A stretch of DNA of 64,000 nt from Eledone cirrhosa (taxonomy: Eukaryota), in assembly GCA_964016885.1 (NCBI GenBank), contig OZ024743.1:37448001-37512000 (forward strand), in the 5' to 3' direction. Below, one piece after another: positions 289 through 62,352 of the stretch (positions within the stretch are counted from its first letter, which is position 1; each line of letters opens with the position of its first letter). The notes under the pieces were generated by a model, which saw only the letters and a program-made list of their open reading frames with translations, was not told the DNA's origin and made no database searches. The position numbers and the translations under genes are program-made.

Positions 289-633
289 ATTTATTAAAAT
301 AACAGATTAAAGTTTAAGCAAAGAATCGCTGCTTTCACCCTTAACGGGATCTTCTGAAACTAACAAAGTCAATCTGTAAACGCAGAAGTGGATATTTCAA
401 AAAATATTTCAAAAATATTTCAAAATGTTTTTTTGAAATATCCACTTCTGCGTTTACAGATTGACTTTGTTAGTTTCAGAAGATCCCGTTAAGGGTGAAA
501 GCAGCGATTGTTTGCTTAACCATTAATCTGTTATTTTAATAAATATTTGCTCTACCGTTCTTTTATATTTTTGATATATATTTATCCTTATCGAGCCCTC
601 TTTGGATTTTAGTCTTGAAATTTATTATTATTA
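289..633. mobile_element. Fold-back non-coding repeat, local family B (probable PLE pLTR)
   Basis: 289-413 is the reverse complement of 428-545, and the right arm extends to ~633. Flanked by (TA)n. Other pieces at 31698-31810, 37903-37975 and 47015-47082. Confidence 0.75.
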
Positions 634-718
634 ATATATATATATTTATATATATATATATATATATATATATATGTGTACATATGTATATATATATGTA
701 TATATATATATATATATA

Positions 719-1213
719 TTGTTATACTTTGGGAGGATCATGTTGCCAATAAGAAACACACGCACCAGTTGCTTTCACTTCAATTTATTATAAATTAAAT
801 TTATAAATTTAGGAGCTTATAAATTTCCGGTTGGTTGGTTGGTTCCACAACCAGACGATTGTTCATATATTGTCAAAGTTCTTTCGTCACACATTCGGTG
901 ACCTCTTCAGTGACTGGGGATTCTTTTCTTTGTTTTTGTGCCACTCCTTTGTTCTGTCCTACGCCATCTTGTTTTTGCGTGTGTTGTGTGCTTAGTTTGC
1001 GCATGTGTTACATCCGGGTGTCTGTGTGTGTTTATATTTGTTTATTTATTTGTTTATTTACATGTTACAGGTTGGTTGCTTGTTCTATGTGAAGTGAAAG
1101 CAACTGGTGCCTGTGTTTCTTATTGGCAACATTACCCTCCCAAAGTATAACAATATCGGTTTCAACAGACGTTTTCAGATAAAGAATTTGGCTAAACGAA
1201 TTCAGAAACGAAA
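719..1213. mobile_element. Short fold-back derivative of the PLE at 51670-54914
   Basis: 719-1085 matches 51670-52045. 1089-1155 is an inverted copy of 719-781, followed by an extra tail to ~1213. Both ends lie in TA-rich microsatellite. Confidence 0.85.
872..914 (-). ncRNA. Minimal hammerhead ribozyme motif (somewhat degenerate)
   Basis: Minus strand: gtca CTGAAGA g gtcac cgaatgt gtgac GAAA gaactt tgac. Confidence 0.55.
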
Positions 1214-1243
1214 TATATATATATATACTATATATACTATACT

Positions 1244-1800
1244 ATCCTTAATAAGAATACCATTAGACTCTCTTACTCTACCACACCTAATCTAGCTAGA
1301 AACTTAGCCAACAATAACATCAAGAAGCTAAATAAGTCTACTTTTTCCGAAGCCCATCCAGCAACCGATAGCAACTGCAATTGCCCTGATAAGACGACCT
1401 GCCCTCTCAACAACAACTGTCTAAAAAAAGATCTCGTGTATATATGCGATGTACTCTAAGGCCCCGATGAAAAAAGAAACTCGTACATCGGGATGACTTC
1501 TAATAGTTTTAAGACTCGCTGGTACGCCCACACACATTCGTTCCGGCGCCCAGACAAATCTAACCAAACTACACTCGCCGCCCACATCTGGCACCTAAAA
1601 AGGAACTCCATCCCCTTCAAGACCCAATGGAGACTACTCCAGAGAGCGCGATCATACACGGGAGGCCATAATTGCTGTGACCTCTGTATCTCCGAGAGCT
1701 ATGAGATTCTATTCGCCAAAGGCCCTCTCCTCAACAAGATCTTGGAACACTCCCCTTATTGCATGCACAAGAACTATGCAAATTACAAAAACTACAGACC
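1244..1800 (+). pseudogene. PLE GIY-YIG endonuclease remnant (Hydra-clade-like)
   Basis: Reads ILNKNTIRLSYSTT...CNCPDKTTCPLNNNC...LVY...*...SYIGMTSNSFKTRWYAH...CCDLCISE...LLNK...CMH, with one in-frame stop. Includes the start of ORF 1493-1966. Confidence 0.85.
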
Positions 1801-2623
1801 CCCCCGGCCCCCCGACCGACCCCCCCATATACCCCCACCCCCGCCCCCATCCCTTTTCCGTCCCTACATCTCTCATTATTACCCTCTTTCCTTCCCTCTA
1901 TCTCTCATTATTACCTTCTTTACTCCCCTCCAGGTCTTATATATTGTGTTGTATGCCTCTGAGTAAAGTTCCGTGGCCGCACACACAAATTCACGTATAT
2001 ACCTGCTCATGTTTGCATACGCGCAGTTATGAACTGCTGCACGCACACGTTCATGATTTATTTATCTATTTAACTGTATATTTATTTATTTAGTTACTTT
2101 ATTTACTTATTTATTTATTTATTTATCCATTTATTTATTTATTTATTTGTTTATTTATTTACTTATTTACTGGTTTATTTGTTTATCTGTTTGTTTGTTT
2201 GTTTGTTAGTTAACTCATTCATTTATTTATTAATTTATGAGTGAATGATTAGGTAATGAATAGATAAGGGATAAAAGATAGGTAACGAATAGTGAATGGT
2301 AAATAGTAAGTAATAAATATTAAATAGTAATTAATTACTTGATGATAATATTAATAACTTAATAGTGACATTAATTATTTTATCCTCTATCCGGCCCAGT
2401 TTAAAATTTAAAATTTAAAATTTAAAATTAAAATTTGTCCCACTACCTTTATACTTTAGACACATGTATGAGTGCGAACGAGTGCGTGTTTGTGCATATG
2501 CGTTTATGTGTACTTATTTGTATGAATGTATGTGTATGTATGCGTGTTTGCTTGTAAATGTGTATGTGTGTGTATGTATATATGTGTATGTATATATATG
2601 TATATATGTATATATATATATAT

Positions 2624-3500
2624 ATATGATAATAATGGAGCTGCGGCGTTGCAAATGGGTTACATATGAAAAAGTGAGTCCTTCATCAGTGACCCTCCAA
2701 CCGTCCTAGGCATTTCATCGCTTTAAGGGCCATATACCTCAGGTTGGTGCGAACAACGGCTAAAAAAAGTCGTTGGGACACGTAAATAAAGAGAACGTTA
2801 GGGTGAACAAACAAAATGGTTTAAGCAACAGAACGGTTGGAGGGTCACTGATGAAGGACTCACTTTTTCATATGTAACCCATTTGCAACGCCGCAGCTCC
2901 ATTATTATCATATTTACACACATATTTTTTCCTCTGCTGCCACCCGTCTGTTTCGTTCTTTGTATCTTTACCCTTTCTAGCAGTCTCTTTCTCTGTTAGC
3001 CTCTTCCTCAACTTTCACTCACTCATACCCTGTCACTACCTCTCCTCCTCTCCCCTTTCTTCCCGCTTGACCTGTCCGTAATCCTTTTCTCGCGGGCACT
3101 TTGCCAAGCCGGTATGAATTTTTTTTCTCTCTCTCTCTCTCGTCTGCGAATTCACAGAACTTATGTTTACCGAATTCGCTGACCAGACCCCTTCTTTTTA
3201 CCCACGTTAGACCTGTGCGAAATTCCTTCCTTGCTCACATTTCAACCAACTTTGATGGTCTTTATTCTCTCGTTCACGATTTTATCGAGTTTATATTCAT
3301 AGAAATCTGGGACTTGTCTCTTTCTTCTCACTTTCTGTTGCTTAAACCATTTTGTTTGTTCACCCTAACGTTCTCTTTATTTACGTGTCCCAACAACTTT
3401 TTTTAGCCGTTGTTCGCACCAACCTGAGGTATATGGCCCTTAAAGCGATGAAATTCCTAGGACGGTTGGAGGGTCACTGATGAAGGACTCACTTTTTCAT
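2624..3500. mobile_element. Non-coding fold-back plus partial tandem element, local family D (629-nt unit)
   Basis: Inverted arm 2624-2833. Forward part 2834-3500 has a terminal direct repeat (2834-2872 = 3463-3501). Diverged copies at 6895-7013 and 23446-23992. Confidence 0.8.
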
Positions 3501-60678: not shown

Positions 60679-60727
60679 ATATATATATATATATATATAT
60701 ATATATATATATATATATATATATATA

Positions 60728-61070
60728 TGGTAAATGTAACTGAGTTTTTCGAATATTAATAATAACATTCGATTCGTTTGCAATTATGCAAACAAGCCTC
60801 ATTTTTATAGCCACGTCAGTAGAATGAACACTTCATTCTTGTTCTTGTGTTGGCATGCGAACTGAACTGCAGACACTAATGTTTCTGAGTATCTCCCTTC
60901 ATCAGTACAGCTCACTGTTCACCTGCCAAACTGTCAGAGCTAGTGAAAATATATGCTAATGGCTATAACATTGAGGCTTGTTTGCATAATTGCAAACGAA
61001 TCGAATGTTATTATTCAAAAAACTCAGATTACATTTATTGTATTCAGCCATGTAGAGCGAAATTTTCTTT
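60728..61070. mobile_element. Small fold-back element with an internal HHR
   Basis: 60731-60801 is inverted at 60972-61037. (TA)n flanks. Confidence 0.78.
60864..60913 (-). ncRNA. Hammerhead ribozyme motif
   Basis: Minus strand: gagctgta CTGATGA agggagatactca GAAA cattagtg TC tgcagttc, giving an 8-bp stem I with G-U pairs. Confidence 0.75.
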
Positions 61071-61087
61071 TATATATATATATATAC

Positions 61088-62285
61088 ATCAAAGGTATAT
61101 ATTGAGTTAGGGACTCAAAATAGTCTCTTACAATAAAATAGCTCTAAGAAAGAGATATTTCCGAGCCGTATATTATAATAGAATATAAAAGAAAAACGAA
61201 CACAGACATACATATATATGTATTCAAATTGTAAGGGACCTTATTCACTAAGGTGAAAAGAATACTAATTATAGACAGTTGGGTTCGCTTCTCTCAATTT
61301 AAGAAAAAATTAAGAAAATAAATACAAACCGGAATTGTGGTAACTACCAATCACCCAGACAACTTGTTGTATCGCAAAGTTAATTGTGAATAGAAATACC
61401 AATCCAAGCTCATCAGTGGGTGATGAATTAGTATCCTAGACACATCTAAGTATGCTATATATAAAATATATAAAATAGTGCACATGGCATCCTAGCGTGT
61501 CTCACAAACCTACAACACTAAAAATAGCAGCCAGATTTACTCGACATTTGAAATAGCTCAACAAATTAACGGAATCGAATATATCAAAGGTATATATTGA
61601 GTTAGGAACTCAAAATAGTCTCTTACAATAAAATAGCTCTAAGAAAGAGATATTTCTGAGCCGTATATTATAATAGAATATAAAAGAAAAACGAACACAG
61701 ACATATACATATATGTGTTCAAATCGTAAGGGACCTGATTCGCTAAGGTGAAAAGAAAACTAACTATAGACAATTAAGTTCGCTTGTCTCAATTTAAGAA
61801 AAGATTAAGAAAATAAATACAAACCGGAATTATAACATACGGCTCAGAAACATCTCTTTCTTTGAGCTATTTTATTGTAAGAGACTATTTTGAGTTCCTA
61901 ACTCAATATATACCTTTGATATATTCGGCTCCGTTAATTTGTTGAGCTATTTCAAATGTCGAGTAAACCTGGCAGTTATTTTTAGTGGTGTAGGTTTGTG
62001 AGACACGCTAGATGTGTCTAGGATACTAATTCATCACCCACTGATGAGCTTGGATTGGTATTTCTATTCACAATTAACTTTGCGATACAACAAGTTGTCT
62101 GGGTGATTGGTAGTTACCACAATTCTGGTTTGTATTTATTTTCTTAATTTTTTCTTAAATTGAGAGAAGCGAACCCAACTGTCTATAATTAGTATTCTTT
62201 TCACCTTAGCGAATCAGGTCCCTTACAATTTGAACACATATATGTATATGTCTGAGTTCGTTTTTCTTTTATATTCTATTATAAT
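61088..62285. mobile_element. ORF-less tandem plus fold-back element (495-nt unit)
   Basis: atcaaaggtatatattgagttagg at 61088 and 61583. 61832-62285 is inverted. (TA)n flanks. Confidence 0.85.
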
Positions 62286-62306
62286 ATATATATATATATA
62301 TATATA

Positions 62307-62352
62307 TTGTTATACTTTGGGAGGGTCATGTTGCAAATTCAGAAACGAAATA
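62307..62352. mobile_element. Ultra-short two-ended remnant of the 51670 PLE family
   Basis: tgttatactttgggagggtcatgttgc (inverted 3' end) is fused to aattcagaaacgaaatat (tail seen at 1199-1215). Confidence 0.7.

What the first reader, a model, noticed from the sequence alone, without database searches (positions are those of the whole stretch)
289..62352. Two-ended fold-back insertions at (TA)n are the rule across unrelated PLE families
Seen: at least 15 inserts from about 10 unrelated families (289, 719, 2624, 3541, 14154, 23446, 24036, 24631, 24982, 32261, 38224, 42899, 51670, 60728, 61088, 62307) share one layout. Two arms of unequal length are joined internally; where an ORF or HHR gives orientation, they are joined 5'-to-5' with both 3' ends facing outward, mostly into (TA)n. 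Established: inverted 5' pLTRs are known in PLEs, and PLE RTs are relatives of telomerase. Inference: both ends of a cut in a self-complementary (TA)n tract prime reverse transcription independently and the cDNAs are then joined. That would be a symmetric, telomerase-like break-filling mode operating as the default here.
Basis: partly seen in the sequence, partly recalled or inferred. Interest (0 to 1): 0.85.

Follow-up and report, generated by a model that had tools for sequence, protein, structure and literature searches.

The report
Penelope retrotransposons prime both target strands
About half of the Penelope-like retrotransposon copies examined in this animal genome are two pieces joined head-to-head inside TA repeats, and the two pieces almost always end at two different fixed points of the element, which likely means that one enzyme complex starts copying from both cut DNA strands, a testable answer to how these elements make their long-known inverted ends.

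Summary
All 16 listed inserts are two arms joined 5'-to-5' with 3' ends outward, mostly in (TA)n, from 12 families. 'The rule' overstates it: 40-65% of copies are two-ended. The layout, the tail at one end and the (TA)n preference are published (PMC8557442, PMC3846280), and a PLE extends both target strands in vitro (PMC11167929).

The counts are new. Each family has two fixed 3' end sites, distal D and proximal P, mostly at short AUAU-like motifs. Two-ended copies pair one D with one P (39 of 44 in unselected blocks, p=1.4e-7). The P arm reaches further 5' in 29 of 59 pairs and some arms share no sequence, which excludes simple snap-back. Arms share subfamily variants. Junctions carry microhomology or filler, and some TSDs show staggered nicks.

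Best model: coordinated two-site twin priming, not independent, symmetric, telomerase-like break filling. A SINE control shows at most 5 of 177 such joins. Long reads were unavailable. New variant of a known kind.

The parts
290..633 (.). F1 (Hydra-like PLE) two-ended insert: left arm 290-~405 ends at P, 24-nt filler, right arm ~430-633 ends at D (tail ~85 nt); 30-nt TSD-like repeat of an interrupted (TA)n
   Evidence: ORF motif CxCX5C in other copies
720..1212 (.). F2 insert: long left arm 720-1089 (P), short right arm 1090-1212 (D, ~56-nt tail), 2-nt junction microhomology
2628..3497 (.). F3 insert: left arm D, 14-nt filler, right arm is a partial tandem of a ~630-nt unit ending at P; no ORF or canonical HHR core found
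3540..5421 (.). F4 (Neptune-like) insert: left arm P against (GA)n, right arm D (tail ~33 nt)
   Evidence: ORF in a C3 copy
14154..17563 (.). F5 (Hydra-like) insert: long left arm D with ORF, right arm 17439-17563 P (tail ~135 nt)
15701..17437 (-). F5 RT-EN open frame (578 aa stop to stop), CxCX5C linker; no Pfam hit
21697..21916 (.).
23447..23988 (.). F3 insert: left arm D 23447-23853, right arm P 23854-23988, blunt junction
24037..24293 (.). F5-subfamily insert: left arm P, right arm D, near-symmetric junction
24632..24839 (.). F6 insert: left D, right P; both arms begin just 5' of the HHR-like core (24780, +)
24983..31678 (.). F7 (Hydra-like) insert: long left arm with broken ORF 28132-30100 (-), interrupted by an element at ~25725-27469 and two SINEs; right arm 30328-31678; D/P type unclear
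31700..31809 (.). F1 insert not listed: 18-nt P arm joined to a D arm that starts at the P site
32262..35021 (.). F8 insert: left D with partial tandem and a SINE, right arm 34743-35021 P against (TC)n; HHR-like core
38225..39023 (.). F9 insert: left P with ~400-nt tandem unit, right arm passes D; HHR-like cores at 38331 (-) and 38801 (+)
42899..43481 (.). F10 insert: left P, right arm starts at the P site and runs through a ~322-nt unit to D; HHR-like cores at 43040 (-) and 43294 (+)
51671..54912 (.). F2 insert, the exception: both arms end at P; arms 97.5% alike over 1284 nt; junction at ~53629
52071..53780 (-). F2 RT-GIY-YIG frame of the left arm (the first residues read across the junction); the right arm 53581-54501 (+) repeats the C-terminal part
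   Evidence: (RVT_1 E=6.5e-4 for the left frame, GIY-YIG E=4.6e-4 for the right frame, both below Pfam cut-off)
60729..61070 (.). F11 insert: left P, right D (33-nt tail); HHR-like core at 60905 (-)
61088..62283 (.). F12 insert: left D with partial tandem (~495-nt unit), right P; no ORF or canonical HHR core found
62308..62349 (.). F2 minimal insert: ~26-nt P arm joined to ~17 nt of the tail end (D); the arms share no sequence

Best explanation
These are Penelope-like retrotransposon insertions whose two arms end at two different fixed sites, most likely made by coordinated twin priming, in which the element's endonuclease would nick both strands of a (TA)n tract and each free end would start reverse transcription at one of two start sites near the RNA's terminal repeat. 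Shown: head-to-head layout, two discrete 3' end sites per family (D and P, 33-136 nt apart), one D plus one P per insert, 3-6 nt AU-alternating motifs at most sites, same-subfamily arms, microhomology or filler at junctions, TSDs in a few readable flanks. Inferred: staggered nicks give two 3' overhangs; because (TA)n is self-complementary both overhangs can pair with the same short AUAU motif; one RNP (probably a dimer) assigns one site to each strand, mostly on one RNA, the trailing RT either stopping at P or displacing the leading cDNA; host microhomology-mediated end joining joins the two cDNA 3' ends. If only one site fires, a one-ended D or P copy results.
For: Two end sites in 9 of 9 families tested. 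D+P in 88 of 96 automated two-ended calls overall, 39 of 44 in unselected blocks, 22 of 24 in the six arbitrary blocks away from the window; 53 of 60 TA-flanked inverted pairs outside my reference families show the same asymmetry. P arm reaches >12 nt further 5' than D in 29 of 59 pairs, D further in 17, equal in 13; 8 of 59 D arms lie wholly in the tail. D arms stop 0-12 nt 5' of the P site in 8 of 88 pairs versus 1 and 0 in the neighbouring 13-nt bins. Near-symmetric junctions 14 of 63 versus 5.2 by permutation. F2 arms share 171 derived variants versus 40.6 expected; median arm-arm distance 2.8% versus 6.1% to other copies (37 pairs). Microhomology >=3 nt in 17 of 63 junctions versus 5.1% in the null. 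An 11-nt non-TA TSD at L026 and 5 more TSD-like flanks among 96. In vitro a Poseidon PLE cleaves and extends both strands, starts at two sites that bound the tail, and is predicted to be a dimer (PMC11167929, main text read).
Against: No biochemistry here; order and single-RNA use are not shown. Most arms overlap in sequence, which needs strand displacement or two RNAs. F2 shows no stop at P (0 of its D arms in that bin). Three or four loci join arms of different families (L016, L255, L194, unclear C12:138540), which needs two RNAs or a later deletion. Two inserts are P+P (window 51671, L022) and six were scored D+D (two of these read D+P once the tandem is followed). Shared variants show the same source lineage, not the same molecule, and could reflect conversion between arms. 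[quoted passage not shown] AU motifs are weak at the F5, F6 and F8 P sites. Only 6 of 96 flanks give a readable TSD. 33 of 96 junctions were not measured.
Confidence: 0.6

Rival explanations
1. Dual priming by two RNA molecules: each strand end primes its own RNA and the cDNAs are joined. To fit the data the two protomers or RNPs must still choose different start sites.
For: Overlapping arms need no strand displacement; candidate cross-family joins at L016 (F1 P + F2 D, 12-nt spacer), L255 (F2 + F3) and L194 (F2 + F9); two P+P inserts; one expressed source locus per cell would also give same-subfamily arms.
Against: Independent choice cannot give 39 of 44 D+P; D arms pile up at the P site (8 of 88 versus 1 and 0) and junctions are symmetric more often than chance (14 of 63 versus 5.2), both expected on one RNA.
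Confidence: 0.22
2. Snap-back or self-priming: one cDNA (or an antisense template, as proposed in PMC3846280) folds back at a palindrome and copies itself; the copy joins the other target end at the first TA-like motif (P).
For: Explains same-source arms and D+P; 13 of 59 pairs are near-symmetric, several at internal palindromes (L001, L009, L205).
Against: The copy cannot hold sequence absent from its template: P reaches further than D in 29 of 59 pairs while D alone has the tail, and in 8 of 59 the arms share nothing. At most it explains a subset.
Confidence: 0.1
3. Post-insertion events: a second copy inserts in opposite orientation into the same (TA)n tract and the middle is deleted, or cruciform-prone (TA)n causes inverted duplication.
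For: Inserts cluster densely in (TA)n; three of five SINE pairs lie in larger inverted repeats; could explain the cross-family joins.
Against: Would not give same-subfamily arms or strict D+P; inverted duplication would copy flanks and give identical outer ends; 0 of 12 SINEs near (TA)n are folded back.
Confidence: 0.06
4. Assembly or amplification chimeras.
For: No long reads could be laid; the window's own 53629 junction was not spanned by any of the 24 listed pieces (1851 not shown).
Against: Arms differ by a median 2.8% (F2) and end at family-specific sites, which chimeras would not; raw Illumina reads of another sample and study show 4 opposite-strand joints among the 15 joints listed on the F2 3' region (83-101 reads, 1-2 starts each), and 74 short-read contigs pass from the P site into (AT)n.
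Confidence: 0.02

Closest known systems
EN+ Penelope-like elements (Neptune, Hydra, Naiad, Penelope/Poseidon) with inverted 5'-truncated copy and tail (PMC8557442; PMC3846280; PMC8969392)
   Same: [quoted passage not shown]
   Different: In the passages read these are qualitative, and ascribed to EN-mediated resolution or self-priming. Here they are counted across 9 families, tails are 33-136 nt, D+P pairing is near-strict, and arm geometry excludes self-priming as the general route.
Anolis Poseidon PAc in vitro (PMC11167929)
   Same: Both target strands cleaved and extended; two internal RT start sites bounding the tail; predicted dimer.
   Different: Bulk assay: no pairing of sites within one product, no strand difference, start site not homologous to the target, no link drawn to inverted copies in the main text read. 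Here the sites mostly carry AUAU-like homology to (TA)n and are paired one per strand.
L1 twin priming and postulated dual priming (PMC2837659, describing Ostertag and Kazazian 2001)
   Same: Second nick primes a second cDNA; inverted fragments inside TSDs; junction microhomology.
   Different: In L1 the second priming site is a variable internal position, the fragments are separated by an internal deletion, and it is a variant route. Here both sites are fixed, the arms mostly overlap, and it accounts for about half of the copies.
Telomerase / EN-deficient Athena and Coprina PLEs (PMC8557442 introduction; PMC2246262)
   Same: Related RT; short primer-template pairing at a simple repeat.
   Different: These families carry a GIY-YIG endonuclease, add no repeats and leave TSDs in readable cases; no evidence for healing of pre-existing breaks.

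Membership tests
EN+ Penelope-like elements | Single ORF with RT and C-terminal GIY-YIG endonuclease | tested here: met
   F2: RVT_1 and GIY-YIG hits below cut-off; F4: GIY-YIG above cut-off, RVT_1 below; F1, F5, F7 by motif and BLAST similarity only (no Pfam hit for F5 and F7)
EN+ Penelope-like elements | ORF linked to families F3, F6, F8-F12 | tested here: inconclusive
   No linked ORF in the copies held; F3, F9, F10, F12 form 320-630-nt tandem units, like non-autonomous elements
EN+ Penelope-like elements | Hammerhead core in the terminal repeat | tested here: met
   Pattern scan: F1 (variant core), F2, F6, F8, F9, F10, F11; not found for F3, F4, F5, F12; Rfam gave no HHR among the 150 of 186 matches shown; cleavage not testable
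EN+ Penelope-like elements | 5' truncation, partial tandems (pLTR), optional tail | tested here: met
   (L251, L253: ~4-kb F2 unit with partial tandem)
EN+ Penelope-like elements | RT phylogeny within the PLE clade | not tested
Hydra clade | CxCX5C linker upstream of GIY-YIG | tested here: met
   F5, F7 by pattern, F1 by translation; definition from PMC8557442. Absence of CCHH, DKT and RWK motifs were not tested in full
Neptune clade | CX2-5CxxC linker and two cysteines inside GIY-YIG | tested here: met
   F2, F4; motifs alone do not separate Neptune from related clades
L1-type twin priming | Two inverted fragments with both primed ends outward, junction microhomology, TSD | tested here: met
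   (TSD readable in 6 of 96 only)
L1-type twin priming | Non-overlapping fragments with an internal deletion, variable second site | tested here: not met
   Arms overlap in most pairs; the D arm stays within the tail +12 nt in only 13 of 59; second site fixed
Telomerase-like break healing | Endonuclease-independent use of existing ends, repeat addition | tested here: not met
   EN-bearing ORFs, fixed element ends, TSDs in readable flanks; use of pre-existing breaks is not testable from sequence
MITE / TIR DNA transposon | Equal terminal inverted repeats, fixed internal structure | tested here: not met
   Ends unequal (D versus P), junction position differs per copy, one-ended copies common

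The most novel reading that the evidence does not exclude
Two-site twin priming is the native integration route of (TA)n-targeting PLEs: a dimeric RT-endonuclease holds one RNA with two fixed AUAU start sites, gives one to each nicked strand of a self-complementary target, and so anchors both ends of the insertion by reverse transcription; the tail is the spacer between the two sites, and occasionally the two ends are filled from RNAs of different families.
Probability: 0.45. Interest if true: 0.7.

Novelty: new variant of a known kind. Interest (0 to 1): 0.52.

Why it matters
How PLEs form inverted terminal copies and one-sided tails is named as an open problem (PMC8557442 discussion). The counts here argue against the published self-priming idea as the general route, link the tail and the inversion to one event, and give sharp predictions for the existing in vitro system (PMC11167929): one start site per strand within each product, pairing at AUAU, same RNA barcode on both arms. 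A retroelement that anchors both ends by priming is also relevant to RNA-templated insertion tools, and to annotation, since such copies can be mistaken for MITEs or miRNA hairpins (one search gave sub-threshold miRNA hits at 335-498).

Tried and rejected
Rfam scan: only sub-threshold matches, almost all miRNA-type, on hairpins and microsatellites; uninformative. Genome search with the F4 end returned nothing (common words are skipped), so F4 rests on 5 copies. The first F6 reference was itself two-ended and was replaced. The F8 reference contains the SINE; those hits were excluded. The Pfam-positive ORF L089:526-2337 was first taken for F1 but belongs to another PLE. A variant seen in one arm only is a selection effect, not evidence for two templates. 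A strict order 'D first' was considered: one-ended F2 copies are mostly D (10 of 12 loci; 13 of 17 automated in blocks), but F1 gives 9 P and 5 D, so it was dropped. Tail folding: z below -2 for 2 of 10 tails only; no general structure. The read check of the window's own junction was inconclusive; no RNA holder listed. Block C5 had no (TA)n and contributed nothing. No dimer prediction was run: no unbroken full-length ORF was held and two copies of the long fragments exceed the size limit. Earlier-findings look-ups returned nothing. [quoted passage not shown]
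Full report
Setting. The window lies in a 3.0-Gb assembly, G000:C4:37448001-37512000. It is rich in (TA)n tracts and holds several RT or GIY-YIG frames. I did not identify the organism.

Observation. Self-BLAST with and without microsatellite masking and local alignments confirm two oppositely oriented arms at all 16 listed positions, from 12 DNA families. Orientation comes from ORFs for F1, F2, F4, F5 and F7 and from hammerhead-like cores for F1, F2, F6, F8, F9, F10 and F11; in each case the outer ends are 3' ends. 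F3 and F12 have neither in the copies held. By the motif definitions of PMC8557442, F1, F5 and F7 are Hydra-like (CxCX5C) and F2 and F4 Neptune-like (CX4CxxC); their proteins match each other only weakly, about 27-30% in short stretches. The layout therefore spans at least two PLE clades.

Frequency. I fetched six arbitrary 200-kb blocks and 400 kb around the window, 90 loci from three searches and 12 extensions. Four loci that were the window itself or a duplicate were dropped. In the blocks an automated parse scored 44 two-ended, 9 tiny-partner candidates and 57 one-ended inserts with a microsatellite flank. This 40% is a lower bound, because several split halves and related subfamilies were scored one-ended. 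By eye the searched loci gave 17 of 29 (F2, query upstream of the tail; two-ended copies are over-sampled there), 19 of 29 (F2, tail query) and 12 of 28 (F1, tail query). Two-ended copies are about half, not nearly all.

Controls. A SINE with 182 3'-complete copies had 5 head-to-head pairs; none involved the 12 copies near (TA)n, and three pairs sit in larger inverted repeats. Against that, a de novo scan found 60 TA-flanked inverted pairs outside my reference families; 53 have one end at the TA tract and the other 20-151 nt short of it, like the PLEs. I did not test those families for PLE membership. Seven are symmetric, among them elements ending in (CAT)n at both outer ends, which may be non-PLE retroelements with the same layout.

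Not an artefact, though long reads are missing. F2 arms differ by a median 2.8% and end at family-specific sites. Raw Illumina reads of another sample and study show four opposite-strand joints among the 15 listed on the F2 3' region (139 not shown), and 74 short-read contigs run from the P site into (AT)n. The window's own junction at 53629 was not spanned by the listed pieces.

The key anatomy. In 9 of 9 families tested the 3' ends fall at two discrete sites: distal D and proximal P, offsets about 85, 56, 34, 33, 135, 67, 74-78, 45 and 81 nt for F1, F2, F3, F4, F5, F6, F8, F10 and F12. Two-ended inserts pair one D with one P in 88 of 96 automated calls, 39 of 44 in unselected blocks (p=1.4e-7 against the 50% maximum for independent choice) and 22 of 24 in the six distant blocks. 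Tail-selected loci cannot be P+P, hence the block figures are the fair test. In the window 14 of 16 listed inserts are D+P by my reading, 51670 is P+P and 24982 is unclear. In natural copies and tandems most D and P sites carry 3-6 nt of alternating A/T, for F2 the same context at both sites; this is weak at the P sites of F5, F6 and F8.

Junctions and arms. Of 96 two-ended calls, 63 direct junctions could be measured. Microhomology of 3 nt or more: 17 of 63 versus 5.1% in simulated joins; 26 have filler, 11 of them 5 nt or longer and several resembling nearby sequence; part of the 1-4 nt fillers are copy mutations (about 20% of null joins score as filler). Among 59 D+P pairs the P arm reaches further 5' in 29, D in 17, and 13 are equal within 12 nt; 8 D arms lie wholly inside the tail. 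A snap-back copy cannot contain sequence missing from its template, so it cannot explain at least half. Near-symmetric junctions (14 of 63 versus 5.2 by permutation) and D arms stopping at the P site (8 of 88 versus 1 and 0 in neighbouring bins; none in F2) point to one shared RNA. Arms share derived variants (F2: 171 versus 40.6, 37 pairs; F1: 30 versus 8.5, 12 pairs), though 9 of 37 F2 partners are no closer than the median other copy. Six of 96 flanks give a readable TSD-like repeat of 11-30 nt, one at a non-TA site.

Against a pure one-RNA model: candidate cross-family joins L016 (F1 P + F2 D), L255 (F2 + F3), L194 (F2 + F9) and an unclear case at C12:138540, and two P+P inserts. These suggest that two RNAs are sometimes used, or that later deletions fused neighbours.

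Mechanism. Most likely (0.6): the GIY-YIG domain nicks both strands in a staggered way; both 3' overhangs of the self-complementary tract pair with short AU motifs at D and P; one complex, probably a dimer, gives one site to each strand; cDNAs stop at variable points and are joined by microhomology-mediated end joining. The layout, sites, pairing and junction statistics are shown; nicking geometry, dimer, single RNA, strand displacement and the host joining pathway are inferred. Rivals: two RNAs with asymmetric site choice (0.22), snap-back (0.1, perhaps the symmetric subset), post-insertion events (0.06), artefact (0.02).

What is known. [quoted passage not shown] PMC3846280 (passages): head-to-head is the most frequent arrangement, explained by self-priming on an antisense template. 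PMC11167929 (parts 1-2 of 4: main text and start of methods): PAc cleaves and extends both strands, starts at two sites bounding the tail, is predicted to be a dimer. PMC2837659 (passages): twin and dual priming in L1. PMC8969392, PMC9977147, PMC13282606, PMC2246262 and bioRxiv 10.64898/2026.07.22.740005 (passages) added nothing on pairing. Searches found no paper that counts D/P pairing or applies twin priming to PLEs; older subscription papers and supplements were not seen.

Verdict. Real, and a known PLE layout. The added value is the near-strict pairing of two fixed start sites, which ties the tail and the inversion to one event and can be tested in an existing assay. New variant of a known kind; interest 0.52.

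Noticed in passing
L016:847-1631; L255:46-2457; L194:1501-3063; G000:C12 block 138410-138704: Arms of two different PLE-like families joined 5'-to-5' with 0-13 nt between them; either two RNAs filled one site or a deletion fused neighbours.
   Followed up: partly
window 24632-24839 and F6, F1 copies: 5' truncation hot spot just upstream of the hammerhead-like core (about 137 nt from D in F6, about 157 in F1); may mark the RNA 5' end.
   Followed up: partly
window 2869-3497, 38225-38717, 43112-43481, 61088-61831: Short tandem units (about 630, 400, 322, 495 nt) without ORF, two with HHR cores; resemble retrozyme-like non-autonomous PLEs and show the same two-site ends.
   Followed up: partly
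C12 block 132985-134908 and 172785-173534: Elements ending in (CAT)n at both outer ends within (TA)n; possibly non-PLE retroelements with the same two-ended layout.
   Followed up: no
window 25725-27469 (ORF 26012-27103, -): Inserted element with a 363-aa frame and short terminal inverted repeats inside the F7 arm; no Pfam hit; probably a DNA transposon.
   Followed up: no
window 12549-12709, 13036-13163, 22156-22348, 28738-28930, 29615-29796, 32381-32578, 39989-40184, 55508-55704: Abundant SINE-like family with AAT-rich 3' end, often inserted inside PLE copies; used as control.
   Followed up: partly
window 35162-37820: Minus-strand Hydra-like fragment (ORF 36429-37097, HHR-like core at 35259) followed by a plus-strand end with a different HHR-like core at 37622; adjacent inserts or a cross-family join.
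   Followed up: no
window 1240-2450, 48219-49690, 57653-60677: Apparently one-ended PLE-like copies (GIY-YIG-like fragment 1460-1966; Hydra-related frame 59223-60524).
   Followed up: no
window 18560-21660: Degraded minus-strand element with RT-like and endonuclease-like fragments, probably a LINE (recalled resemblance, not tested).
   Followed up: no
L200, L219, L254, L261: Three-segment inserts with a short internally inverted piece between the D and P arms.
   Followed up: no
G000:C5:60000001-60200000: 200-kb block with 48% GC and no (TA)6 tract, unlike all other blocks.
   Followed up: no
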